A DNA stretch of 64,000 nt from Escherichia coli (GTDB taxonomy: Bacteria; Pseudomonadota; Gammaproteobacteria; Enterobacterales; Enterobacteriaceae), in NCBI RefSeq assembly GCF_024298765.1, contig NZ_CP101211.1; one strand, written 5' to 3'. Under the pieces are notes generated by a model. It made no database searches, was not told where the DNA came from, and worked only from the letters and a program-made list of their open reading frames with translations. A program made the translations under genes and the position numbers. Shown piece by piece: positions 4,133-59,606 of the stretch (its first letter is position 1; every line of letters begins with the position of its first letter).

Positions 4133-4175
4133 AATACCTCCTGTTTAGAAGTATTATATGTAAACAGCCTCAGCG

Positions 4176-4187
4176 GCTAATAACCCG
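4176..4187 (-). promoter_or_regulatory. conserved promoter-proximal element (GGTTATTAGCC on coding strand) with TATAAT 16 bp downstream
   Basis: read on minus strand: GGTTATTAGCC gctgaggctgtttaca TATAAT, then AGGAGG and ATG of 3836..4132. Confidence 0.5.
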
Positions 4188-9964: not shown

Positions 9965-10003
9965 AAAAGAAAAAAGGGTTCCTCCGCTTTAGAGGAACCC
10001 TTT
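9965..10003 (-). terminator. intrinsic terminator
   Basis: minus-strand stem AAGGGTTCCTC/GAGGAACCCTT followed by TTTTCTTTT. Confidence 0.55.
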
Positions 10004-10039
10004 CAAAAGGTGCCGATGGCATACTAATCCACACCCTGA

Positions 10040-10063
10040 AAAGAGGGGGGTTGCCCCCCTCTT
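10040..10063 (-). terminator. hairpin at hok 3' end (terminator or fold-back element)
   Basis: stem AGAGGGGGG-ttg-CCCCCCTCT just 3' of the hok stop codon. Confidence 0.45.
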
Positions 10064-10069
10064 TGTCAG

Positions 10070-13817: not shown

Positions 13818-14039
13818 GATTAACTCTCCAGATTATGTGGAATCATTATAACAACTGGCATCCCGCCACAAATAACCTGAGAAAAATTCTTTGAAATATT
13901 CCTATATATAAGGAATTACAGTCGGAAAAGAAACGATGAAATAGCGCCGACCGCTTAAAATCGATAAATTAAAATGGACGGCACTGGAATGAAAAACTGA
14001 AAGTAGTAAGACCGTAATTATCCTTCACGGATGTAAGCT

Positions 14040-16701: not shown

Positions 16702-16948
16702 TGGAGCACCTCAAAAACACCATCATACACTAAATCAGTAAGTTGGCAGCATCACCGCCTTTTCTACAGCAGGATACAGAATTTCTGAGTTGGTATTATC
16801 TTCGTCATTATCAAAGATAATTTCAGAATCCATATTGATGTTATCTTCAAGCCAGCTTGAAAGCACTTCAAGTAATGACATCACCTTTTCAATTTGCATA
16901 TCGCCTCCTCTGTTAATGTGAAACAAATATAACAAAGTGGCTTACCCG

Positions 16949-16963
16949 GCTAATAACCTGAGC
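16949..16963 (-). promoter_or_regulatory. GGTTATTAGCC promoter-proximal element with TATATT 16 bp downstream
   Basis: also forms one arm of a long hairpin (TAACCTGAGCAGAAAGTT / AACTTTTCTGCTCAGGTTA). Confidence 0.45.
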
Positions 16964-24584: not shown

Positions 24585-24650
24585 AGTTGACTCCTTGATT
24601 ATTTAATTAATGTATTTGATGAGAAGATCATAACAAACACACTACTACCA

Positions 24651-24666
24651 ACTAATAACCTGAAGT
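24651..24666 (-). promoter_or_regulatory. GGTTATTAGTT promoter-proximal element with TATGAT 17 bp downstream
   Basis: minus strand CTTCAGGTTATTAGTT-N17-TATGAT. Confidence 0.45.
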
Positions 24667-28743: not shown

Positions 28744-28807
28744 TTGTGCCTCCAGCTCAGGTTGAGGTTAATTTAGCGTTGCCCCGGTTCACCGGGGCAA
28801 GAATAAA

Positions 28808-29236
28808 TCAACCCTTAATGAAATTGTGCCCCCAGGTGTTAGGCTTAAATGCCTGCTCTTTGATATATGTTTTCATTACCTTGCAGGTTTTTTTCAGGGC
28901 TTTGGTATTGGCATCGGTTACTGGGATAAAATGGCGAGAATGACGGTTTTCCCGGTACTGCTTATCAGCGTTTGGGTCAATTGCTTCGCTTTGCAGGAGC
29001 CCTTCGTGCCTGCCAATTACTATTACGTAGTTCATTTCACCTGAAACACGATCCGTGAGTAATTGAAGGGAAATATCAGCTGCTCGCGTGGCCTGGCTTG
29101 CAGATATTTTTGCATGCAAGAAAGCCCCCTTTCTGAATTTGGCCGGAGTTAGCCCTGTAATATCCTCAACACTAAAATTAAGTGAGGAAAGAATTGAAAA
29201 TAAGTCGCAGCTAATGACTTCAGTATTATTAGGCAT
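28808..29236 (-). CDS. hypothetical protein (142 aa)
   Basis: ORF; inverted repeat operator-like element upstream. Confidence 0.45.
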   Translation of the reverse strand: MPNNTEVISCDLFSILSSLNFSVEDITGLTPAKFRKGAFLHAKISASQATRAADISLQLLTDRVSGEMNYVIVIGRHEGLLQSEAIDPNADKQYRENRHSRHFIPVTDANTKALKKTCKVMKTYIKEQAFKPNTWGHNFIKG

Positions 29237-29266
29237 TTTACCCGTCCCCGTCCATATTCATGATAC

Positions 29267-29295
29267 GGTAATGATACCAGGTCGATATCATTACC
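29267..29295. promoter_or_regulatory. inverted repeat GGTAATGATA-N9-TATCATTACC
   Basis: perfect 10-bp arms overlapping the putative promoter of 28808..29236. Confidence 0.4.
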
Positions 29296-29330
29296 TAATA
29301 ACTTGGTGAAAGAAAATCTGTAATTTTTAG

Positions 29331-29708
29331 TTAACTAAAATTAATAGTCTCAATACTGCTCAAGAATTCTTTTTTTACGTCCGGTGTAAAAGGTATACGT
29401 TCAATGTATTTATAAAGTGTCGCAAATGTTTTGGGTTCAATGTTTCGGGAGATAATGTCATCAATCGGATCTTCGAACATATTGATAAAGATATCGACAT
29501 GCTGCTCTCCGCTTTCTGATGCCTTTGAAAGAAGACTGACCACTTCAATGTAGCGATTATCCTGCTCTGCAATGAACAACCAGTGCCCTTCGTTAAAGGC
29601 GGGTGCAGCGCTGTAGCGTTTAACAACAATTTCTGAAAGATTATATCCTGCCTGATTCAGCAGATTATTAAAGTTGAGTTGAGTTGAAATCACGTCTAAC
29701 GTTTTCAT
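29331..29708 (-). CDS. hypothetical protein (125 aa)
   Basis: ORF with AAAGGAGG RBS. Confidence 0.45.
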   Translation of the reverse strand: MKTLDVISTQLNFNNLLNQAGYNLSEIVVKRYSAAPAFNEGHWLFIAEQDNRYIEVVSLLSKASESGEQHVDIFINMFEDPIDDIISRNIEPKTFATLYKYIERIPFTPDVKKEFLSSIETINFS

Positions 29709-29755
29709 AAAACCTCCTTTTCATCTGTACTTATTATACTGTTACCCAACCCCCA

Positions 29756-29770
29756 GCTAATAACCTCCCA
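29756..29770 (-). promoter_or_regulatory. GGTTATTAGCT promoter-proximal element with TATAAT downstream
   Basis: minus strand GGGAGGTTATTAGCT ... TATAAT ... AAAGGAGG ATG. Confidence 0.45.
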
Positions 29771-30115: not shown

Positions 30116-31297
30116 CTAAGACCAGCGGTAATACTTAAAGTAGTCCTCATTTACAGCCAAAAACTCCCTTAAACCGTTCATTAATCCCTTTTCAAACGCT
30201 GTAACGATAAACCGGTATCCGTCCAGTGTTTCAATGTAGTAGATCCCGCCCGGTGTTATTCCAACATGCAACACCTCGGCTGTCATCATAAACTGGCCTT
30301 CCGGAAAATCATGCGACAGGTATATAAAACCCGTCGTGGCCGGTGCGGGTGTGGCATTCACTAAGACACCGTTAAACTGCTGCCCGTGCCTCGCCGGTAC
30401 AAGCTCACTTCCCCTGGTTGACTTATCGAGCAGCCCCTTAACATCTTTTTGCTCTTTAGATGAGGTATAGCCCCGCACATCACTCCCATCACCTGGGCGA
30501 GAGCCGGTGCCGACATGTGCAAGACGACGGTAAGCGCTGCGCATATTGATGTGGCAGGATGCCCCGGCTCTACCCTGAAGCCTTACGCCAAAATCTTCGC
30601 AAAGTAATAAAATCTGACGTAGCTGGTGTTCATACACGGACGCAGAAAGTGAAAGGTTGAAACTGGAAAAGGTCAGTTCTAAAACCTTTTCCCGTTTGTC
30701 ATTGAAATGTGCTTCCAGCCTGATGATTGGCTTTTCCGACATTGCAAAAGCTTTGTCCGTTGCTCTGTACCGGCATTCATCTCCGAAACATTCTTCAACA
30801 ACGCTGGCTATAACCGTGTCGTGATCGCCATCTTCCGGAGCTGGCACAAAGATTTCAAATTGTGCCGGTGTCTCCGGCTCCAGCAGAACGGGATATAAAC
30901 GCGGAGAATTAAGCAATGCGCATTCAGAATTAATGAGCTTAACCCAGGCGCTTTTGTCGTCCGGATCCTTAAGCTGCTGTCCAAGGTTATCGCAAAAGTC
31001 TACTATCTGACGGGTATGCTCATCCGTGACTGCACAGATCAGGTTAAGACCATGCGTGGCCATACTCAATTCCCGGGTTCGGGACTGGGAATTGATCGAC
31101 CAGGGGTTAAGTGAAAGCGAAATAGGGCTTATGGAAGGGACGACCGTCTCATTCTGCAAATCTGTAAGCTGGCAGTTCGCAGTAGGCTTCGGGGAAAGGG
31201 TACTAAATATGTAACTTGCCTGTTGTTTAGTACTGGCCTGGATATAAAACATCGCGTCCATGCTTGTATCCCGGGATGAAATTGAAAATAGCTTCAT
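30116..31297 (-). CDS. hypothetical protein (393 aa) immediately downstream of HigB-like gene
   Basis: starts 9 bp after the higB-like stop; no HTH recognised. Confidence 0.5.
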   Translation of the reverse strand: MKLFSISSRDTSMDAMFYIQASTKQQASYIFSTLSPKPTANCQLTDLQNETVVPSISPISLSLNPWSINSQSRTRELSMATHGLNLICAVTDEHTRQIVDFCDNLGQQLKDPDDKSAWVKLINSECALLNSPRLYPVLLEPETPAQFEIFVPAPEDGDHDTVIASVVEECFGDECRYRATDKAFAMSEKPIIRLEAHFNDKREKVLELTFSSFNLSLSASVYEHQLRQILLLCEDFGVRLQGRAGASCHINMRSAYRRLAHVGTGSRPGDGSDVRGYTSSKEQKDVKGLLDKSTRGSELVPARHGQQFNGVLVNATPAPATTGFIYLSHDFPEGQFMMTAEVLHVGITPGGIYYIETLDGYRFIVTAFEKGLMNGLREFLAVNEDYFKYYRWS

Positions 31298-31305
31298 TTT
31301 TAACC

Positions 31306-31602
31306 TTAATGGATGAGCGATTTATAGTCATGTGCTGACAAATGGACATTATGTGCGCCATCATTCCATTCAAAGAATAATCGATACTTAGAGTTTACTC
31401 GAATGGAGGAATAACGGTTTGACGTCATTCTTAAGCGTTCATAACGCAAGCTGTTGGATAATAACTCCCGCTCACTCTGGACATTATCCAGCGTTTCGAG
31501 TCGACACAGAATCGCGTTAATAATTTCAGAAGGAATACCTGCCGTTGTTTTTCCATTACGGAAGAACTTTTCAAGCCGTCTGTCTTTAAATGAATGGATC
31601 AT
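31306..31602 (-). CDS. HigB-family (plasmid killer) toxin-like protein (98 aa)
   Basis: FKDRRLEKFF...IPSEI...SIRVNSKYRLFFEW.DG aligns with Rts1 HigB (FKDKWLEQFY...SIRVNKQYRLIFKW.DG). Confidence 0.7.
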   Translation of the reverse strand: MIHSFKDRRLEKFFRNGKTTAGIPSEIINAILCRLETLDNVQSERELLSNSLRYERLRMTSNRYSSIRVNSKYRLFFEWNDGAHNVHLSAHDYKSLIH

Positions 31603-31651: not shown

Positions 31652-32122
31652 TTAATGAATCCCTAAAATGCGGGCGGCGACTGCCAGCTGCTTATCACTT
31701 AACTGACGCTGGTGGGTTAAAGAAGACTTAAGGCTTTCCAGAAAATTATTACTGCTGGATTGCTGGGTGATTGCATCAACCATTTTTTGATGAGATCTGC
31801 ACCATGCATTGAACGCAGAGTTGTGGGCGTTTTCAGTCCTCAAACGCTCGTTTTGCAAGGATGCTGACACTTTGCGGGCAGCTTGAGCATTAATGCGGTA
31901 CAGCGCATTCAGCGTGTAAGCAGTGCGGGTCGTTTCGAGGCTGTAACCCGTGGCTTTACAAGCCATACAGCGACTTCTATAAAAATGCTTACGCTCTCCC
32001 CGACCATTGCATTTATCGCAAAGAATACGAAAAGTATATTCCGCAGTACCTTTTACAGAATCAACACAGCGGATTTTTGCGCTGGAGATTTCAATTCCAC
32101 TGCGATCATAATATTTGGTCAT
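31652..32122 (-). CDS. zinc-ribbon protein (156 aa)
   Basis: CDKC...CMAC cysteine pairs. Confidence 0.45.
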   Translation of the reverse strand: MTKYYDRSGIEISSAKIRCVDSVKGTAEYTFRILCDKCNGRGERKHFYRSRCMACKATGYSLETTRTAYTLNALYRINAQAARKVSASLQNERLRTENAHNSAFNAWCRSHQKMVDAITQQSSSNNFLESLKSSLTHQRQLSDKQLAVAARILGIH

Positions 32123-32174
32123 AATGTGATTCCTCCGGTTAGTTCTGGAGTAATCATGACAGAATGAATCTACT

Positions 32175-32189
32175 GGCTAATAACCTGAG
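32175..32189 (-). promoter_or_regulatory. GGTTATTAGCC promoter-proximal element
   Basis: minus strand CTCAGGTTATTAGCC ~60 bp upstream of 31652..32122 start. Confidence 0.45.
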
Positions 32190-32556: not shown

Positions 32557-34947
32557 TTATGTTTGAGGGAATTCTATAGCAAATGTGGCCGTGCCAGATT
32601 GACCACTTACAGCGGGAGTAACGGGATACGTGCGCTCTTCACCATTACCAAGATCCAGTGACAGCGATTTAGTTTCACCAGGCTGGACCGTAACTCCGGC
32701 AACCGTAACGCCGAACTGGGCATTTTTCTGAACAGTCAGGGTTCCGTTTAACTGTCCGGTAATGATAGAACCGTCCTGACGCCGCAACACACTGGTTCGG
32801 ATGATGGCCAGCGGCGTGTTGTCCGTTGCTTTCAGTGCTACGGCTGTGGCCAGCGTCTTGAGATTATCCAGCATAATCAGATTCGCAGGCTGGTAGGTAA
32901 AATTAAGCGTTTTAGTGGTCCGGTTACCTGATTCGTCAATAGCCAGTGCCTCCAGATGATACATCTGTCCCGATTCGTCAGTGTTGGGGAAGATTCTGGG
33001 GTATTCCGGAATAAAGACATCCTTGGATAACGGCGTGAATGCCAGGGTGACCTTTTCAGAGTTAGGTCCACCAGCGAGCTGAAGCGATGTCAGGGAAGCA
33101 TCCCCAGAGGCATCAGTAACGCTTATGCGAAGGTTCTCAAGCCCTTTAACCAGTTTTCCTTCTGCGTCTGCGCCATTAAAACTGAACGCGATAACCGGAA
33201 GCGTTGAGTCAATTTTCAGCGGTGCATTAAGCGTTTTGGTTCCGGTGTTTCCAACAAGATCCGTGGCAGAGACGCTAACCACCGTATAATCCCCGTCCGG
33301 TAGACCAGCGTATGAGAAGGTGGCGTTTTTGGTTTTATAATCGCTTTCACTGACGGTCACAGGCTTCAGCGTGAAAGGTTCCCCCCGGGCATTTTTAAGG
33401 GTGGCTTCGAAAACTTTGGTATCCCAGTAGCTGATGTTCCAGGCGTTGACGCGATCATTATCGGTGGCCGTCATAGTGATTGTCTTGGAGGCCTTGTTTA
33501 CCTGAGCGACATTAACCACCGGTGGGTTGTTATCCCAGATAACCGTAAAATTACCAGCAAGCGCATCGAATATGCTGTCACCATCTTTTCCCGAGTAAAG
33601 GTGCAGATACTCAAATCCTTTGTCACTGGTGTAGTTGAAGTTAACCGTCATCTCGCATGAACTTTGTCCGATAGGTATAGTGCAGAACCAGGCTGCATTT
33701 TTTACCGTTCTGAACTTTTGCACGTATGGTCGGGGTTCAGCGGTTACCTTTATGCGGCTAATGGTGGCGGTTTTAACGCTGATTGAGGCCTGAGTTAACC
33801 ACTCACTGGTATCACTCCGGTACATCTCTTTAGCCACTATCTTCGGGGCTATTTCCATCGCCGGGGCTGGAGTGAAGTTGAGGGAGTTATGATGAATTCG
33901 TCTTACTCCTCCTGCCAGAGTCTGGAATTCATGATAAGTATCCCCCACATTGGGATATATGTATTTGAAAGTATAAATATTATAAGTGCTATCGGACGTC
34001 TGGAAATTCGAGTCCGCCCAGCCATATTTGGAACCGTTAACAGCAGTAAAGTCACTTTTTTTCCTTAATACCCGTACGGAAATAGGGTTCTGGAAGACGG
34101 TCATGCCAGACTGATAAGTGACCCATGATCCGGTAGTGGCGTCCTGCACCTGGATGATATCGTCAGGCTTAACCCGATCAATTACGCTTCGGCGGCTTAG
34201 TTCGATCCTGTTTCCCGCTTTGTCATAAAGGTAGATCCCCACTTTATATTCAGAGCGGTTTTCCGGTGCCAGGGCATTGCTGCTTGCGTCGGCGACTTGA
34301 ACGGTTACGCTACCTTCCACTGTATTAATTTCCGCTGGCTTTTTACGCTCCACTCCAGCGGCATCGGTTATGAAATATTCAGCATTAGCAAGCCCGGAAC
34401 CTTTATCACTCAGTCCATTAAAGACCAGTGCCTGGACGCTGGCGTACTGCATACCGGCTGGTACTGAAGTGAAGATCGCTTCGCTGCCAAAGTTCCACCC
34501 GTTTCTCGTATAACTTATGGTACCCGTTGCCGGAGGCGTTCGGTCAATTGCAAGCGGGTAATCCTGCCGGGAGACCTCCTTCCCTTGCAAGTCGGTAATC
34601 ACCTCTCTGAGGGTGAAGCTATCTTCTCCCATCGCTGGTACGGTCAGAGTCTTGCCGTAATAATCAAAGCCTGTCGAAGATGTGGTACGGTCATCTACGG
34701 TAACCAGGCTGCTTTTCGTGCTCCAGATGAGGCTCCCGTCACTTTTCAGCAGACTGAGCGTAATATAACGGTCCAGACCGGAAATAACGGCAACGTCAAA
34801 GCTCGTTACCGGATTAATCCATACGGATGCAGGCGATACGGTCTTTTTAACGTTCAGGGTATCTTTAAAGCTGAATTCTGCGATTTCAGCGGAAGCTCCT
34901 GCGCTGAAACCTGCAAATGCAATAAGCAGGGCTAGTTTGATTTTCAT
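32557..34947 (-). CDS. secreted Ig-like repeat protein, paralog 1 (~796 aa)
   Basis: Sec signal peptide MKIKLALLIAFAGFSAGASA; repeated D-x-T-P-P domain starts; paralog of 40500..42920 and 48582..51038; start chosen at the internal Met with AGGAGA RBS. Confidence 0.7.
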   Translation of the reverse strand: MKIKLALLIAFAGFSAGASAEIAEFSFKDTLNVKKTVSPASVWINPVTSFDVAVISGLDRYITLSLLKSDGSLIWSTKSSLVTVDDRTTSSTGFDYYGKTLTVPAMGEDSFTLREVITDLQGKEVSRQDYPLAIDRTPPATGTISYTRNGWNFGSEAIFTSVPAGMQYASVQALVFNGLSDKGSGLANAEYFITDAAGVERKKPAEINTVEGSVTVQVADASSNALAPENRSEYKVGIYLYDKAGNRIELSRRSVIDRVKPDDIIQVQDATTGSWVTYQSGMTVFQNPISVRVLRKKSDFTAVNGSKYGWADSNFQTSDSTYNIYTFKYIYPNVGDTYHEFQTLAGGVRRIHHNSLNFTPAPAMEIAPKIVAKEMYRSDTSEWLTQASISVKTATISRIKVTAEPRPYVQKFRTVKNAAWFCTIPIGQSSCEMTVNFNYTSDKGFEYLHLYSGKDGDSIFDALAGNFTVIWDNNPPVVNVAQVNKASKTITMTATDNDRVNAWNISYWDTKVFEATLKNARGEPFTLKPVTVSESDYKTKNATFSYAGLPDGDYTVVSVSATDLVGNTGTKTLNAPLKIDSTLPVIAFSFNGADAEGKLVKGLENLRISVTDASGDASLTSLQLAGGPNSEKVTLAFTPLSKDVFIPEYPRIFPNTDESGQMYHLEALAIDESGNRTTKTLNFTYQPANLIMLDNLKTLATAVALKATDNTPLAIIRTSVLRRQDGSIITGQLNGTLTVQKNAQFGVTVAGVTVQPGETKSLSLDLGNGEERTYPVTPAVSGQSGTATFAIEFPQT

Positions 34948-35081
34948 GGGTTGTCTCCTGATCAGGTTCCCCATGATACTTTTTCAGTGTTCGAGATCTT
35001 TTCGGGAAAATAGCTAATTTTAATGTTTTTCTTTTCTGCCCGGCGGGACTTGTTTTGTTTACGTAAATGCAAAAATACAAG

Positions 35082-37119: not shown

Positions 37120-37439
37120 GATGGTTTTCCTTTTATGCCCGGTGCCGCCGGGACGGTGGCATTAAATATACGCCATGTAAGTAAATTAATTTTTACCCAT
37201 TTGATTGTCAATACAAACAAAAAATAAACCATGTTTATTATTTTACCAGCGATGCTATTTTAAAGTCCGTCTAAAATAAAAAACCAAAAAGTTAAATTTG
37301 AAGCCATCCTTCCTAAATTCATTTCTTGCGCATATTAGCCCCTGCTTTAAGTATATAATTTTTGAAAAAGTTGTCTGGAGGTTATTAGCTCGTGCATCTG
37401 GATTGTTAATATAAAGCCAACACAGAAAAGGAAAACAAA

Positions 37440-43074: not shown

Positions 43075-43377
43075 ACTCGTTGATTACGACAATGGGAGTG
43101 AGTGTCGAACCCCTTGAGTAAGGATACTTGGTAAATATACAGCCCCGGGGATTCTCTTCCTTCAACCGGGGATGACAACGGGAGTGAGTCCGGCAACTCA
43201 CACCTGTTGTCACTTCTCTGACATATCGTCATACGAGCTTACTCAAGCGCATCCACAAAGATGGGATCGTTTTGAATCTAAACTGGTACTGGTTAGCCAG
43301 TCACTTGCATCTACTCCCCCGTCGATATTTAAGTGACAATTGTAGTGATCTGCAATACTGGTGTCTCAGAAACACTG
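43075..43377. repeat. iteron-like palindrome repeats (left part of array split by IS)
   Basis: units such as ATGACAACGGGAGTGAGT...ACTCACACCTGTTGTCAC. Confidence 0.6.
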
Positions 43378-43421
43378 TGTTGTGGTCAAGTTTTTTTGGA
43401 CACGCCGATCAGATGGTAGGG

Positions 43422-44662
<1,241 letters not shown>

Positions 44663-44680
44663 TTAAATTTGACCACAACA

Positions 44681-46312
44681 CTGACGACGGTAGAGACTCA
44701 ATACCCTAACCCCTGACAACAGAAGTGAGCTTAGAGGTGTTACGCTGCTGTCACCTAATGCTTGGGAATTGCCTGACTCACAACCATTGTCATCCGGAGC
44801 TACTGATTAACGTTGAACCGCTGGACTTTAATGACAGTGGTAGTGATGGATAGGCTCATTTCCATTGTCGTCATTTTATCGGACAAGCCTCTTCGTCCTA
44901 CAGGTTTAAGCTGACAATGGTAGTGATTGGATGATCTCACTACTGTTGTCACTCAGTTCTTTGAGCGGACCCTTCCCTCGGTTGGTCGGCATTAACAACG
45001 GTAGTGACTCGATTGGCTCACTGCCATTGTCATCGTGTAAATGACGTACCTTATCAGCTCAGCTGAAAGCAATGACAACGGTAGTGACTCTAATTGCTCA
45101 CTGCCATTGTCGTCGTGTCTATTGAGAGCCTTATCAGTGCACCTGAAAAGCAATGACAACGGTAGTGACTCTAATTGCTCACTGCCATTGTCGTCGTGTC
45201 TATTGAGAGCCTTATCAGTGCACCTGAAAAGCAATGACAACGGTAGTGATTCTAATGGCTCACTACCGTTGTCACCGTGTGTATTGAGAGGATGGTCCAC
45301 TTAACTGGACGTATATGACAATGGTAGTGACTTTAATAGCTCACTACCATTGTCGGTGTGTGAATTGAGAGGATGAGCAGCTCAGCTGTACGTCCATGAC
45401 AATGGTAATGACTTAATGAGCTCACTACCGTTGTCACCCTGTTAATTAAGAGGCTCATCTGCTCTTCTGGAAGGCTATGACAACGGAAGTGACTTGCTGG
45501 GCTCACTGCCATTGTCGCCGTATGAATTGAGAGGATCATCCGCTCTTCTGGATGGCAATGACAACGGTAATGACTTAATAGGCTCACTACCATTGTCACC
45601 CTGTGAATTGAGAGGATGATCTGCTTAACCAGACGGCCATGACAACGGTAGTGACTTTCTGGGCTCAATACCGTTGTCACCCTGTGAGTTAAGAGGTTGA
45701 CCCGCTCTACTGGACGGCCATGACAACGGTAGTCACTTTCTGGGCTCACTACCGTTGTCACCCTGTGAGTTAAGAGGTTGACCCGCTCTACTGGACGGCC
45801 ATGACAACGGTAGTCACTTTCTGGGCTCACTACCGTTGTCGCCATATAGAATGAGAGGAGCATCAGCTCAACTGAACGGCAATGACTACAGTAATGAGCT
45901 GGATGAAGCATAACCATTGACATCTGGCCCAACCGGAAGCCGTATTCGCCAATCCAATCGAGATTCACAATGGCCGTGACTCGCCGCATTAAGTTCCGGT
46001 GTCCTCCCAAAGCTGAACGCACACTCGGAGGACAATGACAATGCCAGTAAGGTACACATCATTACCATTGTCACTATAGCTACCAGAGAAGCCGGGATTT
46101 GAATGTCGATGGTAGTGAGTGGGTCAACTCACTGCCATTGTCACCCCGTTACGATATTTTCCGTTGGATGTACTGGCCAATGAAGTAAAGCGTAGAAACC
46201 GGGTGTTAACAGGTGACTCAGGAGAAAGCGTTGAATTTCGCAATCTCGATCTACATAGGGTGGTAGAGAACAATGACAACGGTAATGACTTTTGACTCAT
46301 TACCGTTGACGT
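44681..46312. repeat. tandem array of about 20 x 81-bp repeats, each with an inverted pair of iteron-like 15-mers (TGACAACGGTAGTGA / TCACTACCGTTGTCA)
   Basis: exact 81-bp periodicity visible (e.g. 45069, 45150, 45231); adjacent units identical or near-identical. Confidence 0.85.
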
Positions 46313-46385
46313 GAAAGAGCGGGCTGGGACTAACGAAAATCGAAGAAGTAATTTAGCACCCGGAGCCTAAACCGCCGGGTTAACT

Positions 46386-47474
46386 TTAGCTGGCGTTGCT
46401 GTTCTTTTTCTGGCTTCGAAGACTACGAATATAGCGCAGTTCTTCAGCGGTTAAATCATGGACGGTAAGAACATCATCGCCGTCAATCGGGTCAGCTGGT
46501 GGGCATAACTCACCTTCTAAAACAGAAGACCCTGAGTTCTCTTCTTCATCTTCAACCACTTCTAAAGGAGGCTGAGTATTGTTCAAATTCAGATCGGGAT
46601 CCCGCTTATGAATCTGGAAGTATACTTTTCCGTCTTTCTTAATTTCGGTGTACTTGAGGTATCCTATCGATGCCAACTCTTCAAGAGCCTTTCTCACGGT
46701 AGCATTCTGACTATTTGCTCGTGTTTTGAGGTTCAGACGATTTTTCAGCCGAGTAAGGGATATCGGTATAGGATTTGGCGGTAATGACTCTATGAACGTA
46801 TAGAGAGCCTGGGCGCTTTCCTTCTTGGCCAACTCCTTAATTGCCTTCAGCTGCATCAAAACCTTATGATCGTATTGATAGAGCTCGAAAATCTTAGGAT
46901 CAACCTGAAGGACAACCTGATCTGATTCCGGGTCTAACAGGGCAGACTGTACCAGATGCGTTGTATAGACTTTGGACGAGTTATTACTGGTGAACGACAA
47001 GGTAACGGATGCTAACCTGCGTAAGGAGGCGTCTATACGTTTTCTGGACGCTGTAGATGAGCGATAATTTTCAGGCGTACATAGCTTGAGGAATTCAGTG
47101 AATTTTAAGCTTATCGTGTCATTGTTAATCGGATGATTGGCATAGGTTCGAATGATGCCCATCCACGTCTTAAAATCTACTGACATATTAAGACGCTCAC
47201 CGACAATTGAAATATTGGTGAACCCCTCGCTCTCCATTAAAGAGAGCGTCTGTAACTCTTTCGTTGCGTCAAAGCCAACCGTTTTATATTCCCGATTTTG
47301 ACGCCCCACACTCTTTGGTGATGGGACGAACAGCCCGAGCCGCATCAAAGCAATAGACTGCACCGTACGGTTGCTGTTAGGACGCAAAATGATGTCTTTA
47401 CCTGATTCTTTCTCTCTAACAGAGAAAGCCCTGGTGACCAGGTCCTGCTGCTCAGTATCTTTCTCTTTAGTCAT
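46386..47474 (-). CDS. repA: RepFIB-family replication initiator RepA (362 aa)
   Basis: ESAQALYTFIESLP.P.PISL.RL..RLNLK and N-terminal NTVQ..ALMRLG.FVP match RepFIB/P1-type RepA; flanked by iterons. Confidence 0.85.
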   Translation of the reverse strand: MTKEKDTEQQDLVTRAFSVREKESGKDIILRPNSNRTVQSIALMRLGLFVPSPKSVGRQNREYKTVGFDATKELQTLSLMESEGFTNISIVGERLNMSVDFKTWMGIIRTYANHPINNDTISLKFTEFLKLCTPENYRSSTASRKRIDASLRRLASVTLSFTSNNSSKVYTTHLVQSALLDPESDQVVLQVDPKIFELYQYDHKVLMQLKAIKELAKKESAQALYTFIESLPPNPIPISLTRLKNRLNLKTRANSQNATVRKALEELASIGYLKYTEIKKDGKVYFQIHKRDPDLNLNNTQPPLEVVEDEEENSGSSVLEGELCPPADPIDGDDVLTVHDLTAEELRYIRSLRSQKKNSNAS

Positions 47475-47599
47475 AATAAGTTATCACTGAATGTGTAAAC
47501 AGATTGGTGAATAGTAAGCCCCAGCGAACTCTATGTCACTGGATGGATCATTGTGATGATCCATATCTGTGCATAAGTTCTACCTAAAAAAACGACTCC

Positions 47600-48250
47600 A
47601 CTCATTAAAACTTGGCAAAAACTCTTTGCATACAATGACCTGCAACTCTTATCAACAACGGATCAGATCAAGTTAAAAAGATCTAATGAAAAGTCACTAC
47701 TATTGTCGCTCTGATCACTACTGATGTCAAAAAACTCATTACCAACGTTATAATAATCACTACTAATGTCAAAATAATCACTACTGTTGTCACTGATCAC
47801 GTCTCAGGCCTTGTGCCGTCTGGCCTGGAGGCAGCGGGGATCTCTTTTGATCTATCAGGAACACTAAGGTACTAATTATTGGAACTACCTTGTGGAAAAT
47901 GGGGATAAATAAATGCTTAGTTCTTATACAGGTCTCAACTTGCCTCCCTGATAAAAACTGTCGTCAAAGCTAAATCACAGCCACAGGCATTTTCGGTGGA
48001 TAAATTTTTGAGAAATAGAAGCATACATGCAGACTCGTGTCGCAAGTAATTGAAAGTAATGATTTATTTAAATAATGCGAGTCACCTTACCTCACAGTGG
48101 AAGTTTAAGTCTAACCTCACTACCATTGTCACTTAAAATCATTACCAACGTCGAAATAGTCTCTACCATTGTCTTTTAAGTCACTCCCGTTGTCACTTAT
48201 GTCGCTACTGTTGTCAGTGACAATGCTCCAGCCCAGTAACCATGCGGCCT
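47600..48250. other. putative iteron-type replication origin
   Basis: two sets of ~5 direct iterons (TCACTACYRTTGTCA, ~21-23 bp spacing) at 47693-47800 and 48116-48228; GATC cluster at 47661-47690; AT-rich spacer. Confidence 0.6.
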
Positions 48251-48452
48251 ACAGCGTACCGGGATCTTCTTTGTACTCTCTGGCACCTTTGGGATCATTT
48301 ATTGGATCTACATGAGGGATAAAATCTTTTGACGATTTCGTAGTGCAGTTATACCAGCGACTTAGCAAGACAAAAGCTGCAATTTAGTGACGAGTTACTA
48401 GTCTGCCCAACAAGAGCAATGCAGAGAAGATATGTGGTGAAATGACCATGGT

Positions 48453-48486
48453 AGTGAGTCTAATCACTACCATGGTCCGCAGTAAG
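48453..48486. promoter_or_regulatory. perfect inverted repeat GACCATGGTAGTGA-N6-TCACTACCATGGTC (iteron-like palindrome)
   Basis: 14-bp arms; sequence related to iterons. Confidence 0.45.
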
Positions 48487-48581: not shown

Positions 48582-51038
48582 TTATTTTAATTCTTCAATG
48601 TTAATCATGAACTCAGATCTGCCAGTAAGGCCGGATACAGCAGGGAAAATAGGAAAGCTACGGCTGTCCCCGAGCCCCAAATCCAGTTGAAGCTCTTTGC
48701 TTTCACCTGGCATCGCAGAAACGCCATTTACAGTCACGCCGAATGCAGCGTCCTTACGGACAGTAAGCACTGCGTCCTGAAGCCCTGTAGCGATTGAACC
48801 ATCCTTTTTACGCAGCTGGCTGGCATACAGAACAGCCAGAGCAGTATTGTCAGATGTTTTGAGAGAAGCATTGACAGCTAAGGTTTTCAGATTCTCTAGC
48901 CTGACGAGATTGTTTGGAAGGTAGTTAAATTCGACTGAGCTTTCTTTAACGTTGTTCATCTCATCTTTGGCCTGAACTGTGAGAGTGTATGTTTCGCCTT
49001 CATTAAGAGACGGAAAGATCTTGGGATAATTAGGTGCATACAGGTTGTTTCCCAGATTCACCCAAGACAATTCCACCGCATCAGAAACAGGGCCACCGCG
49101 AAGAGTCATACGGCTTAAGGATGGTTTAGTTAGAGCATCGGTGAGCTGTATACGGACGTTCTCCAGCCCATATACTGTTACGTTTTTGCTGATCGGTTTT
49201 CCTTCGTAGCTAATACTTACAGATGGTGCTGTATTATCAACGACAACTGTTTGATAAGGGAGGTTACCGGTATTGTTGAATGTATCTTGGGCATTAATCA
49301 CCACGTTATAACTGCCTTCTGGTACCTCTTTCATGTTGAACTCATACGTGTAGTTCCCAGACGCCATATTTCTACCTGTTTGTTTGCCGGTTACGCTTAT
49401 TTCTGCGTTGTTACGGTTTTTATCTGACAACCAAACTCGATTTACATAAACATGGTCGAAATATGAACCATCTCCAGGTTGATTCACGTAAACCTGGAGA
49501 ATGTTGGTGGTTTCATTGTAATCAAATCCAGTGACGGAGGGACCCAGTGTATGCCAGGCTATATTCTCCCATATAGGGGCAAAGAAGGTTGCTTCGGTGG
49601 TTGACCTTACTTCATAGCCACTATGAAGATAACCGGTAGTGCCATTTATAATATCCTGGGGCAAAGAGACGGTACAGGTTGTTGAGCCAGCTGGAATACT
49701 GCATGTTGCTCCGCCAGTGATTTTTTGATCATATGGCCTGGCCTGTACATTGAATCGGATATTAGTAAGTTTTATAGGCATATCAGATGCCTTGAACAGG
49801 TTCCAGTTTACGCTGTTGAACCATGTTCCATCAGCCTTTTGTCGTTCTATGGGTGAACTTCCCCAAGCCGGACTCTTTACAGAGGCAGGATCCCAGTTGA
49901 GCCAGCTGGCATACTGACCAAGATCTCCTCCAGACCATTGATATGTATTCACAGGTCTATAGTAGTTTCCATCTAAGGCACCCTGTGGCAGCTTAACTTC
50001 CACGTAGACATAGGTGGCATCTTCGGAAAGGACCTGTACTCCGCCATAGTTATTGGTAATGCTCATGCCACCATTTCGATATGGCTTCCAGTTAGTTCTT
50101 GGGATACGTATAACCAACTTGTAGGGGTTTTCCAGCACTGTAAGGCCTCGTTTAAACGGGACGTATCCCGAAGAAATGCCGGGTACAACACTGGTGCTTA
50201 CACGTGAGTCATGAACTGCAAATGGCGTAAATTCTCCCATTTGATCGTCATATAAAAACCGCTGGGGAGGAATGTTAAGCGTATTTCCTGCCAGGTCCGT
50301 AACGATGAAATTGAAGGTGAATTCTTCATCAAGATCACTTGAGGGCATGCCAGCCTGGGTGTTCATATCTTTAATCCACGGATAGAACGCACGTTTATTG
50401 GCTGTGTCATAACTCAGGTTATTGTCGGAGACCACAGAACCATTACTTCGTTTAATGACAAGACGGATCTTGTCAATTCCACTAGCATCCTCAATACCGT
50501 CTGCAAATATAGAAAACTGGCCACTACCGCCTCGGCCCAACTCCCAAAGTGGCCCAGAAAGTACCATGTCGTAACCTGCGTTTTGACTCGGATAAATACT
50601 CTTATAGCGTGGAGGAGTTGTATCAACGATGAAATGATAAGTAGATGTGCTCACTACAGTCTGGCGAATATCCAGAGTTTCATTGACTACAGTAAAGGTC
50701 CCTTCTCCGAGCGCCGGTAGAACCATATCCTTTCCATAGTATTCTGTTCCATCGGCAGCAACGATACGATCTGCAACGCTCGTTTTGGTCGAGACGGAGG
50801 AATACATAACCTTTTTATCGCTGTCTCGTGTGACCGTCACTCGCTCGTACCGATCAAGACCCGATATCAAGTTCAGAGTCAAAACACCAGCGGGATTAAG
50901 ATATGTTTGTGTTGCAGGTTTGATATTCCGAACAGCCTTATTGGTATCTGTAAATGAGTAGCTAAATACCTGAGCATGTGCCGAAGATACAGTAGCAAGG
51001 GCAGTTGCAACCATGCAGCCAATTAGAGTTTTACGCAT
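48582..51038 (-). CDS. secreted Ig-like repeat protein, paralog 3 (818 aa)
   Basis: signal peptide MRKTLIGCMVATALATVSSAHA; D-x-T-P-P domain starts; two palindrome copies upstream. Confidence 0.7.
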   Translation of the reverse strand: MRKTLIGCMVATALATVSSAHAQVFSYSFTDTNKAVRNIKPATQTYLNPAGVLTLNLISGLDRYERVTVTRDSDKKVMYSSVSTKTSVADRIVAADGTEYYGKDMVLPALGEGTFTVVNETLDIRQTVVSTSTYHFIVDTTPPRYKSIYPSQNAGYDMVLSGPLWELGRGGSGQFSIFADGIEDASGIDKIRLVIKRSNGSVVSDNNLSYDTANKRAFYPWIKDMNTQAGMPSSDLDEEFTFNFIVTDLAGNTLNIPPQRFLYDDQMGEFTPFAVHDSRVSTSVVPGISSGYVPFKRGLTVLENPYKLVIRIPRTNWKPYRNGGMSITNNYGGVQVLSEDATYVYVEVKLPQGALDGNYYRPVNTYQWSGGDLGQYASWLNWDPASVKSPAWGSSPIERQKADGTWFNSVNWNLFKASDMPIKLTNIRFNVQARPYDQKITGGATCSIPAGSTTCTVSLPQDIINGTTGYLHSGYEVRSTTEATFFAPIWENIAWHTLGPSVTGFDYNETTNILQVYVNQPGDGSYFDHVYVNRVWLSDKNRNNAEISVTGKQTGRNMASGNYTYEFNMKEVPEGSYNVVINAQDTFNNTGNLPYQTVVVDNTAPSVSISYEGKPISKNVTVYGLENVRIQLTDALTKPSLSRMTLRGGPVSDAVELSWVNLGNNLYAPNYPKIFPSLNEGETYTLTVQAKDEMNNVKESSVEFNYLPNNLVRLENLKTLAVNASLKTSDNTALAVLYASQLRKKDGSIATGLQDAVLTVRKDAAFGVTVNGVSAMPGESKELQLDLGLGDSRSFPIFPAVSGLTGRSEFMINIEELK

Positions 51039-59350: not shown

Positions 59351-59606
59351 TGAGCCTATTCTGATTTTTTACAAAAAAAGGTGGCTCCCCATTACTTGTG
59401 ATGGCATAAAAATCGCTTCATAAACAAATACATAAATCCAAAACATAAAGTTCAGGTATAAGTGAGGAAAAATCTTATAAATCCGAAATGCTGAAAGTCA
59501 AAACTGTGCGTCTTAAACAACTTTTTTTTGCTCCCTAAGTTATTAGTTAAAGCCCGTGGTTAGGTACGATACCAGCACCTAAATTTCTCTCTCAGGTATA
59601 GACACT

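What the first reader, a model, noticed from the sequence alone, without database searches (positions are those of the whole stretch)
29267..29295. Perfect 10-bp-arm inverted repeat overlapping the putative promoter of 28808..29236
GGTAATGATA-N9-TATCATTACC lies immediately upstream of the start codon region and overlaps an AGTTATTAGGT promoter-proximal element. It looks like a dedicated operator for a local repressor.
Basis: seen in the sequence. Interest (0 to 1): 0.3.

Follow-up and report, generated by a model that had tools for sequence, protein, structure and literature searches.

The report
Chance dyad inside an IncHI plasmid promoter
The perfect inverted repeat is real, but it sits inside the core promoter of a small IncHI2 plasmid gene and is not conserved in related plasmids, so it is more likely a by-product of promoter sequence than a repressor binding site; what is conserved is a recurring promoter motif, GTTATTAG, placed 18 bases upstream of the -10 box.

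Summary
GGTAATGATA-N9-TATCATTACC is at 29267-29295 exactly as described. A perfect 10-bp-arm repeat with a spacer of 20 nt or less appears in 72% of shuffled windows, so it is not remarkable on its own. The window is IncHI2 plasmid backbone. The repeat lies in the 94-bp gap between two minus-strand hypothetical genes (125 aa, 142 aa). Read on the minus strand, its downstream arm is TGgTATCAT, an extended -10 element, and its upstream arm abuts GTTATTAG. Comparison across IncHI2 sublineages, IncHI1B and IncHI1 shows GTTATTAG, its 18-nt spacing and TATnAT are invariant. The dyad drops to 9/10, 8/10 and 3/10 with no compensating changes. GTTATTAG-N18/19-TAnnAT recurs at 9-10 gene starts on the replicon (11 sites against 0.27 expected) and in other IncHI groups. 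Only this member carries a dyad. The dyad occurs nowhere else on the 272-kb plasmid. No neighbouring protein shows a DNA-binding family or fold. It fails tests for a RepHI2 iteron, a Fur box, a terminator or a stable RNA hairpin. Verdict: the repeat overlaps a real promoter, a dedicated operator is unsupported but not excluded (about 0.2), and the conserved GTTATTAG promoter family is the more interesting feature.

The parts
29267..29295 (.). Perfect inverted repeat GGTAATGATA-N9-TATCATTACC. It spans about -31 to -3 of the inferred promoter of the 142-aa gene.
   Evidence: Unique on the 272-kb replicon even allowing 3 mismatches. Not beyond chance for a 64-kb window.
29271..29276 (-). -10 hexamer TATCAT, the first six bases of the repeat's downstream arm on the minus strand.
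   Evidence: T1 A2 T3 A5 T6 are invariant in all 14 distinct sequences compared. Position 4 is C, A or T, and the pEC-IMPQ lineage has the consensus TATAAT.
29278..29279 (-). TG of an extended -10 element (TGgTATCAT).
   Evidence: Present in all IncHI2 sequences and in IncHI1B, absent in IncHI1 (AGg). TGn also precedes the hexamer in most sibling promoters.
29295..29302 (-). GTTATTAG, a conserved -35-region motif 18 nt upstream of the -10 hexamer (about -38 to -31).
   Evidence: Invariant at this promoter in IncHI2, IncHI1B and IncHI1, except for one IncHI2 sublineage (L012), which reads GCTATTAG. Recurs at the same spacing at other gene starts.
29262..29266 (-). Inferred transcription start, about 7 nt downstream of the -10 hexamer, giving a 5' UTR of about 28 nt.
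   Evidence: Inference from promoter geometry only. No transcript data were available.
28808..29236 (-). 142-aa hypothetical gene driven by this promoter. The product is basic (pI 9.3) and confined to IncHI plasmids.
   Evidence: No Pfam, NCBIfam, PHROG or PDB sequence match. AF2 model pLDDT 63 with no significant fold match.
29331..29708 (-). Upstream 125-aa hypothetical gene. The product is acidic (pI 4.7).
   Evidence: AF2 model pLDDT 74, beta-rich, with no significant fold match.
29733..29764 (-). Sibling promoter of the 125-aa gene: GTTATTAG-N18-TATAAT, with no dyad in its spacer.
   Evidence: Conserved in pEC-IMPQ and IncHI1B.
4153..4184 (-). Family member GTTATTAG-N18-TATAAT upstream of a 98-aa ORF.
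13845..13876 (-). Family member GTTATTTG-N18-TGtTATAAT (one mismatch in the 8-mer) upstream of a 103-aa ORF.
16926..16957 (-). Family member GTTATTAG-N18-TGtTATATT upstream of a 54-aa ORF.
24627..24659 (-). Family member GTTATTAG-N19-TGtTATGAT upstream of a 263-aa ORF.
32153..32184 (-). Family member GTTATTAG-N18-TGtCATGAT upstream of the 156-aa Cys-rich basic protein (31652..32122).
37381..37412 (+). Family member GTTATTAG-N18-TGtTAATAT upstream of a 254-aa ORF.
59539..59570 (+). Probable family member GTTATTAG-N18-TACGAT upstream of a D12-class (Dam-like) DNA adenine methyltransferase.

Best explanation
The repeat is a lineage-specific, probably fortuitous dyad embedded in the core promoter of the 142-aa IncHI2 backbone gene. 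Read on the minus strand the layout is GTTATTAG (about -38 to -31), an 18-nt spacer, TGg, and TATCAT (-12 to -7). Its downstream arm is the -10 hexamer plus the four bases that follow. The functional, selected elements are the sigma-70-type extended -10 and the GTTATTAG motif. That motif defines a family of at least nine promoters on this plasmid and is conserved in IncHI1 and IncHI1B. Transcription would start near 29264 and give a short leader to the ATG at 29236. Shown: the sequence, its position, the conservation pattern, the recurrence of the promoter architecture and the uniqueness of the dyad. Inferred: that these sites are promoters, since no transcript data were available; that GTTATTAG is read by a dedicated factor or by RNA polymerase with a helper; and that the dyad has no regulatory role.
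For: (1) Conservation follows promoter elements, not symmetry. Across 12 IncHI2 sequences the dyad has five allelic states (10/10, three different 9/10 forms, 8/10). No pair changes on both sides. Pair 8 is broken in 6 of 9 distinct sequences and pair 7 in 2 of 9. (2) In IncHI1B and IncHI1 only 3 of 10 pairs remain, yet GTTATTAG, the 18-nt spacing and TATnAT are intact. Pairing there is no better than shuffled controls, with 54 of 500 shuffles reaching it. (3) The only variable hexamer position is position 4 (C/A/T), the least constrained position of a -10 element by established knowledge, and one lineage has the consensus TGaTATAAT. (4) GTTATTAG-N16-20-TATNAT occurs 4 times in the window against 0.01 expected. 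The relaxed architecture with the exact 8-mer occurs 11 times on the replicon against 0.27 expected, maximum 3. Members sit 52-75 nt upstream of a start codon that usually has a Shine-Dalgarno sequence. (5) Spacers differ completely between members, and only this member has a dyad of 8 bp or more. (6) A perfect 10-bp dyad is expected by chance in a window of this size. (7) The arms are not significantly better conserved than the rest of the gap: 18/20 against 47/65, one-sided Fisher p = 0.087. The dyad-free sibling promoter keeps its spacer about as well.
Against: The dyad is perfect, spans exactly -31 to -3, and is the classic position for a repressor that occludes RNA polymerase. Within IncHI2 the outer six pairs GGTAAT/ATTACC are kept in 8 of 9 distinct sequences, and real operators tolerate one or two mismatches. 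Restricted to this 94-bp gap such a repeat is improbable by chance. The 142-aa product is basic (pI 9.3) and of unknown fold, so autoregulation is not excluded. All promoter assignments are inferred from sequence and conservation. The tool's own sigma-70 scan did not call this site because the -35 region is non-canonical.
Confidence: 0.66

Rival explanations
1. The repeat is a genuine dedicated operator that arose within IncHI2. A dimeric plasmid-encoded repressor, possibly the basic 142-aa product acting on its own promoter, binds the two arms and blocks RNA polymerase. This would be gene-specific control layered on a GTTATTAG-type promoter.
For: Perfect dyad covering -31 to -3. The outer GGTAAT/ATTACC pairs are kept in nearly all IncHI2 sequences. 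The arms are 90-95% identical between sublineages against about 70% for the rest of the gap. The dyad is unique on the replicon, as a dedicated site would be. The 142-aa protein is basic.
Against: About 400 plasmids of the pEC-IMPQ lineage carry two adjacent broken pairs, and three other alleles break one pair each, never compensated. The dyad is absent from IncHI1 and IncHI1B, where the gene and its promoter are conserved. The conservation excess is not significant (p = 0.087) and is explained by overlap with promoter elements. No DNA-binding family or fold was found in any gene within about 3 kb. The dyad is expected by chance at window scale.
Confidence: 0.2
2. The repeat acts at the RNA level, as a hairpin in read-through transcripts from the 125-aa gene. 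It would serve as a terminator, attenuator or processing site, or, together with the outer pairing TTATTAGG/CCTAATAA, would mask the start codon of the 142-aa gene.
For: The minimum-free-energy fold of 29215-29335 (minus strand) uses both the repeat and the outer 8-bp pairing. The L012 substitution A>G would keep a G-U pair.
Against: The fold energy is ordinary: -24.5 kcal/mol, z = -1.18, and 27 of 200 shuffles fold at least as well. The stem is A/T-rich, has no U-tract and gets no terminator call. No pair changes on both sides, and pairs 7 and 8 are simply broken in most sequences. The structure is absent from IncHI1/IncHI1B.
Confidence: 0.04
3. The arms are binding sites for a factor known from elsewhere: RepHI2, because the arms share GGTAATGA with the plasmid's iterons, or host Fur, because each arm matches a Fur-box half at 9 of 10 positions.
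For: The shared 8-mer core with iterons at 45.1-48.5 kb. The arm similarity to GATAATGATA and TATCATTATC comes from my own reading of the published Fur consensus.
Against: On a matrix built from 39 iteron half-sites the arms score -8.3 bits against 16-29 bits for real iterons, and about 1,000 window positions score as well. GGTARTGA alone is expected about 4 times per window by chance. The best Fur-box match is 10 of 19, equalled or beaten at 1,277 window positions, and nothing in the region reaches 9 of 14 on the 7-1-7 model. The half-sites are 11 nt apart rather than 1.
Confidence: 0.02

Closest known systems
Dyad-symmetric repressor operators that overlap a core promoter (for example the KorA operator over the -10 of IncP promoters, or LexA, TetR and lambda cI operators)
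   Same: A perfect 10-bp-arm dyad that covers the spacer and -10 of a promoter, placed so that a bound dimer would exclude RNA polymerase.
   Different: Both half-sites are not conserved among orthologous promoters. No cognate DNA-binding protein is identifiable nearby. It is a single site. The 9-nt spacer puts half-site centres 19 bp apart. No functional data exist.
Extended -10 (TGnTATAAT) sigma-70 promoters
   Same: TGgTATCAT in the window and TGaTATAAT in a sister lineage. T1, A2 and T6 are invariant. There is no canonical -35. The distance to the start codon is suitable.
   Different: In place of a degenerate -35 region there is a strictly conserved 8-mer, GTTATTAG, at a fixed 18-nt distance. 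A plain extended -10 promoter would not need it.
Plasmid or phage promoter families marked by a shared motif at a fixed position (IncP KorA/KorB operators, IncN/IncW conserved upstream repeats with ArdK/KorA, IncA/C AcaCD boxes, the T4 MotA box at -30)
   Same: One short motif recurs at the same position in many backbone promoters of one replicon, and it is conserved across related Inc groups while the spacers diverge.
   Different: The sequence GTTATTAG matches none of those motifs (recalled from memory, not tested). It is not palindromic beyond a weak GGnTA-T-TAnCC. The factor that reads it is unknown. I found no description of it in the held literature.
RepHI2 iterons of the same plasmid (TGACAAYGGTARTGA)
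   Same: They share the 8-mer GGTAATGA and often occur as inverted pairs.
   Different: The informative TGACAA part is missing, the matrix score is -8.3 bits, and the spacing differs (N13 against N6-N10 between cores).
Intrinsic (Rho-independent) terminators
   Same: An inverted repeat just downstream of a gene (the 125-aa ORF).
   Different: The stem is A/T-rich with only two G-C pairs per ten, the loop is 9 nt, there is no U-tract, the stability is ordinary, and there is no covariation.

Membership tests
Dimeric-repressor operator at a promoter | Dyad symmetry of the site | tested here: met
   10/10 complementary arms with a 9-nt spacer.
Dimeric-repressor operator at a promoter | Overlap with the core promoter or transcription start | tested here: met
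   The repeat spans about -31 to -3 of the conserved GTTATTAG-N18-TGgTATCAT promoter. The promoter itself is inferred, not mapped.
Dimeric-repressor operator at a promoter | Both half-sites conserved in orthologous promoters | tested here: not met
   Pairing is 8/10 to 9/10 in the other IncHI2 sublineages and 3/10 in IncHI1B and IncHI1. No compensating changes occur.
Dimeric-repressor operator at a promoter | A cognate DNA-binding protein encoded nearby or elsewhere on the element | tested here: inconclusive
   Genes within about 3 kb give no HTH, RHH or other DNA-binding family. The AF2 models of the 142-aa and 125-aa proteins (pLDDT 63 and 74) have no significant fold match. The 142-aa protein is basic. 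The models are too weak to exclude binding.
Dimeric-repressor operator at a promoter | Mutation of the arms changes expression, or a protein protects the site | not testable with these tools
   Needs reporter fusions, gel shift or footprinting.
Sigma-70 extended -10 promoter | TG one base upstream of a -10 hexamer with T1, A2 and T6 | tested here: met
   TGgTATCAT at 29279..29271. TG is kept in 4 of 5 lineages, and T1 A2 T3 A5 T6 are invariant.
Sigma-70 extended -10 promoter | Position and orientation suitable for the downstream gene | tested here: met
   Same strand, with the hexamer ending 34 nt before the ATG at 29236. Sibling promoters place the start codon 52-75 nt after the motif.
Sigma-70 extended -10 promoter | Mapped transcription start 5-9 nt downstream of the hexamer | not testable with these tools
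   No transcript data are held, and the literature searches found none.
GTTATTAG-type IncHI promoter family (defined here) | GTTATTAG 18 (rarely 19) nt upstream of a TAnnAT hexamer, directly upstream of a gene start | tested here: met
   29271-29302 matches exactly. It is one of 4 strict matches in the window (0.01 expected) and one of 11 on the replicon (0.27 expected).
GTTATTAG-type IncHI promoter family (defined here) | Flanking consensus yTCAG-GTTATTAG-C and an upstream T/A-rich tract | tested here: inconclusive
   This member reads accaaGTTATTAGgt and so lacks the flanking G and C. IncHI1B and IncHI1 read ccggGTTATTAGg/c. A T-rich tract is present.
Intrinsic terminator | G+C-rich stem followed by a U-tract | tested here: not met
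   No terminator call at the repeat. Fold z = -1.18.
Fur box | A good match to the 19-bp consensus GATAATGATAATCATTATC or to the 7-1-7 motif | tested here: not met
   The best match is 10 of 19, with 1,277 window positions as good or better. Nothing in the region reaches 9 of 14 on the 7-1-7 model.
RepHI2 iteron | Match to the full iteron TGACAAYGGTARTGA | tested here: not met
   -8.3 bits against 16-29 bits for true iterons.

The most novel reading that the evidence does not exclude
GTTATTAG-N18-(TGn)TAnnAT marks an undescribed IncHI-wide regulon. A plasmid-encoded factor would read GTTATTAG in place of a -35 element and coordinately switch an array of small backbone genes next to the relaxase module. 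These are mostly proteins of unknown function plus orphan DNA methyltransferases, possibly establishment or anti-defence genes. It could act as a class II activator or sigma-appropriating factor, or as a global repressor. In the IncHI2 lineage the inverted repeat would add a second, gene-specific operator on one member. The very basic Cys-rich 156-aa protein (31652..32122) has such a promoter itself and is one candidate reader.
Probability: 0.3. Interest if true: 0.55.

Novelty: new member of a known kind. Interest (0 to 1): 0.27.

Why it matters
As a putative operator the repeat matters little. It controls, at most, one hypothetical gene, and the comparative evidence argues against a conserved role. 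The surrounding result is more useful. IncHI1 and IncHI2 plasmids are major carriers of multidrug, colistin (mcr) and carbapenem resistance, and most of their backbone genes and regulation are uncharacterised. A strictly conserved promoter signature shared by about ten backbone genes across IncHI groups gives a concrete handle for finding the factor that controls this gene array. Candidate approaches are pull-down, reporter fusions and motif mutation. It would also help annotate promoters and operon boundaries in hundreds of sequenced resistance plasmids.

Tried and rejected
(1) RepHI2 iteron membership. This was prompted by the shared GGTAATGA core and by the post-hoc pattern GGTARTGA-N4-16-TCAYTACC matching only the repeat and the iterons. 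It was rejected by a matrix built from 39 iteron half-sites, which scores the arms at -8.3 bits.
(2) Fur box. This was prompted by 9/10 similarity of each arm to a Fur half-site. It was rejected because the best match is 10 of 19 and the geometry is wrong.
(3) Terminator or RNA hairpin. Rejected.
(4) A regulon built on the dyad. No second dyad exists on the 272-kb replicon even with 3 mismatches. The mild excess of single half-sites (25 against 14.6) appears to come from iteron-related sequences, but I did not tabulate this.
(5) The only sigma-70 hit of the consensus scan on the minus strand (29254..29225, TGGACG-18-AATAAT). Its -10 lies inside the coding sequence, after the ATG, so it cannot serve this gene.
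(6) Identifying a local repressor. Pfam, NCBIfam, PHROGs and PDB sequence searches, plus AF2 with Foldseek, gave nothing for the 142-aa and 125-aa proteins. The homologue sets are shallow, so the models are of modest confidence.
(7) Literature. Searches for IncHI2 transcriptome or promoter work, the R478 backbone, the 8-mer itself, the IncHI leading region, and R27 TrhR binding returned nothing relevant.
(8) pSTM6-275 as a collinear reference for the 45-kb region. It is not collinear there, so NZ_AP023198.1 was used instead.
(9) A single-stranded-DNA promoter of the Frpo type. Considered and dismissed by reasoning only: a 10-bp stem pairing -31..-22 with -12..-3 cannot mimic a duplex with both -35 and -10.

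Full report
**Observation.** The + strand reads GGTAATGATA (29267-29276), CCAGGTCGA, then TATCATTACC (29286-29295), a perfect 10-bp-arm inverted repeat with a 9-nt spacer. It lies in the 94-bp gap between two minus-strand ORFs, 29708..29331 (125 aa) and 29236..28808 (142 aa). On the minus strand the gap reads ...TTTCACCAAGTTATTAGGTAATGATATCGACCTGGTATCATTACCGTATCATGAATATGGACGGGGACGGGTAAAATG. The description is therefore accurate. It is not statistically remarkable, however. In 200 dinucleotide-preserving shuffles of the window, perfect 10-bp-arm repeats with a spacer of 20 nt or less occur 1.15 times on average, and 72.5% of shuffles have at least one. The half-site is not enriched either: 7 matches at <=1 mismatch against 3.97 expected.

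**Context.** The window is IncHI2 plasmid backbone. The 1.8 kb around the repeat is at least 99% identical in about 595 plasmid records and 80-90% identical in about 420 more, mostly conjugative MOBH/MPF_F plasmids of 200-370 kb from Escherichia, Salmonella and Enterobacter. All four genes around the repeat are annotated as hypothetical. The window aligns to the last roughly 64 kb of pMTY18780-1 (NZ_AP023198.1). It starts just after the mobI-mobH-traD transfer module and runs through a long array of small minus-strand genes to repHI2.

**Comparative test of the dyad.** I collected the orthologous gap from 12 IncHI2 sequences (alignment A3), from IncHI1B (pRHBSTW-00435_2) and from an IncHI1-like Shigella plasmid (alignment A2). 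The 142-aa protein is 46-49% identical in the last two.
- Read on the minus strand, the arms are GGTAATGATA/TATCATTACC (10/10) in the window type.
- One sublineage has GGTGATGATA/TATCATTACC (9/10).
- Others have GGTAATGTTA/TATCATTACC (9/10) or GGTAATGCTA/TATCATTACC (9/10).
- The pEC-IMPQ type, about 400 plasmids, has GGTAATGCTA/TATAATTACC (8/10).
- IncHI1B and IncHI1 keep only 3/10.

In the formal pair count on A3, no pair changes on both sides. Pair 8 is broken in 6 of 9 distinct sequences and pair 7 in 2 of 9. On A2, pairing is no better than shuffled controls, with 54 of 500 shuffles reaching it. Between the window and pEC-IMPQ the arms are 18/20 identical against 47/65 for the rest of the gap. 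That difference is not significant (one-sided Fisher p = 0.087). It is expected anyway, because the arms overlap promoter elements.

**What is conserved.** Three things never change across all these lineages:
- GTTATTAG;
- an 18-nt distance;
- a hexamer TATnAT, which is TATCAT, TATAAT or TATTAT.

A TG sits one base upstream of the hexamer in four of five lineages. So the downstream arm of the repeat is an extended -10 element plus four more bases. The upstream arm begins at the last base of GTTATTAG. The single variable hexamer position is position 4, which established knowledge of sigma-70 promoters says is weakly constrained. One lineage has improved it to the consensus TGaTATAAT at the cost of dyad symmetry. 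With the hexamer at 29276..29271, the start of transcription is inferred near 29264, and the repeat spans about -31 to -3.

**A promoter family.** The same layout occurs upstream of the neighbouring 125-aa gene: GGTTATTAG-N18-TATAAT, then AAGGAGG and ATG.
- The pattern GTTATTAG-N16-20-TATNAT has 4 matches in the window, all on the minus strand, against 0.01 expected. No shuffle reaches 4.
- On a 272-kb composite of the replicon, the exact 8-mer followed at 17-19 nt by a TAnnnT hexamer with at least 4 of 6 matches to TATAAT occurs 11 times, against 0.27 in first-order Markov simulations (maximum 3).
- Nine sites in the window are promoter-like: 4184-, 13876- (one mismatch), 16957-, 24659-, 29302-, 29764-, 32184-, 37381+ and 59539+. 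Each lies 52-75 nt upstream of a start codon, usually with a Shine-Dalgarno sequence.
- They share a T/A-rich tract upstream, the flank yTCAG-GTTATTAG-C, unrelated spacers, and usually TGn before the hexamer.
- The architecture is conserved at orthologous and further promoters in pEC-IMPQ, IncHI1B and IncHI1 loci.
- The genes driven are proteins with no known family plus a D12-class DNA adenine methyltransferase.
- I found no description of the motif in the held literature.

A strictly conserved 8-mer at a fixed distance from a sigma-70-type -10 suggests a dedicated reader: an activator or appropriator at the -35 position, or a global repressor. This is inference.

**Is the dyad part of that family, or of any regulon?** It is neither. 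Among the members only this promoter has a dyad of 8 bp or more in its core. One other has a 7-bp pair. The dyad has no second copy on the replicon even allowing three mismatches.

**Other readings tested.**
- RepHI2 iteron: the window contains a large family of inverted repeats at 43.1-48.5 kb, with consensus TGACAAYGGTARTGA. They occur as 21-bp direct repeats and 81-bp units flanking repHI2. The finding's arms share only GGTAATGA with them. On a matrix from 39 half-sites they score -8.3 bits against 16-29 bits for true iterons.
- Fur box: the best match is 10 of 19, equalled or beaten at 1,277 window positions.
- RNA hairpin or terminator: the fold gives -24.5 kcal/mol, z = -1.18, with no U-tract and no terminator call.
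- Local repressor: the 142-aa, 125-aa, 85-aa, 393-aa, 206-aa and 156-aa neighbours give no DNA-binding family in Pfam, NCBIfam or PHROGs, and the first two have no PDB sequence relatives. AF2 models of the 142-aa protein (pLDDT 63) and the 125-aa protein (pLDDT 74) are beta-rich alpha/beta folds with no significant Foldseek match in the PDB. The 142-aa product is basic (pI 9.3) and the 125-aa and 85-aa products are acidic. This is weak negative evidence, because the alignments are shallow.

**Conclusion.** The 'dedicated operator' reading is not supported. The symmetry is lineage-specific and decays without compensation, is not needed where the gene and promoter are otherwise conserved, has no identifiable binding protein, and is no more than chance provides at window scale. 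I put about 0.66 on a fortuitous or non-essential dyad within a GTTATTAG-type extended -10 promoter. I put about 0.2 on a genuine IncHI2-specific operator, and a few percent on the RNA-level and known-factor readings. The GTTATTAG promoter family is the more noteworthy outcome and needs transcript mapping and reporter tests.

Noticed in passing
window 43086-48477: A large array of RepHI2 iterons (consensus TGACAAYGGTARTGA). There are 21-bp direct repeats at 47694-47778 and 48117-48181 upstream of repHI2 (46386..47474, minus strand). About ten 81-bp tandem units at 44919-45840 each carry an inverted iteron pair, and there are isolated inverted pairs at 46277-46308 and 48444-48477.
   Followed up: partly
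window 43422-44662: An IS3-family element (HTH_Tnp_1 ORF 44297..44662 and rve integrase ORF 43422..44300) is inserted inside the iteron array. Iteron-like sites lie on both sides of it (43086-43350 and 44681-44848).
   Followed up: partly
window 28766-28813 (core 28779-28800): A G+C-rich perfect hairpin, TTGCCCCGGT-tc-ACCGGGGCAA, starts 8 nt after the TGA stop of the 142-aa gene, in the 64-nt gap before the 85-aa gene. No T-run follows on either strand, so it is not a canonical intrinsic terminator. It may be an mRNA-stabilising or terminator-like element.
   Followed up: no
window 29226-29233 and 29294-29301: An 8-bp perfect inverted pair, TTATTAGG/CCTAATAA. The GTTATTAG promoter motif is complementary to codons 2-4 of the 142-aa ORF (ATG CCT AAT AAT). 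It is kept in IncHI2 (with TCTAATAA in pEC-IMPQ) but not in IncHI1. It is probably chance, and it would only pair in read-through transcripts.
   Followed up: partly
window 31306-31602 and 30116-31297: A HigB/RelE-like toxin gene (Pfam PF05015, E = 5e-18) is followed 9 nt later by a 393-aa ORF instead of a recognisable HigA antitoxin. RefSeq names a shorter 315-aa version of that ORF 'flavin reductase'. I found no Pfam, NCBIfam or PHROG support for any family.
   Followed up: partly
window 31652-32122: A 156-aa very basic protein (pI 9.8) with CxxC...CxxC motifs. It has weak matches to the DnaJ zinc-finger domain and to a PHROG of Q-like antitermination proteins (E = 0.002). It has its own GTTATTAG promoter and is a speculative candidate for a nucleic-acid-binding regulator of the array.
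   Followed up: partly
window 1-38000 (record NZ_AP023198.1 about 208.3-246 kb): A roughly 35-kb array of some 45 mostly small, mostly minus-strand hypothetical genes lies immediately next to the mobI-mobH-traD module. It includes orphan DNA methyltransferases, a PAPS-reductase-family protein, HNH endonucleases, a Hok toxin, and DUF957 and DUF3085 proteins. This resembles a plasmid leading or establishment region. Eight of the GTTATTAG promoters lie here.
   Followed up: partly
window 32557-34974 and 48582-51038: Two large bacterial Ig-like domain proteins (805 aa and 818 aa, the latter with Big_3_2, Big_3_3 and DUF4165 domains), of the kind reported as needed for IncHI conjugation (PMC6764697, seen in the search listing only, not read).
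   Followed up: no
window 9973-10064: Two adjacent perfect inverted repeats, AAAGGGTTCCTC... at 9973-10003 and AAAGAGGGGGG... at 10040-10064. They were found in the window-wide repeat census and are possibly back-to-back terminators.
   Followed up: no
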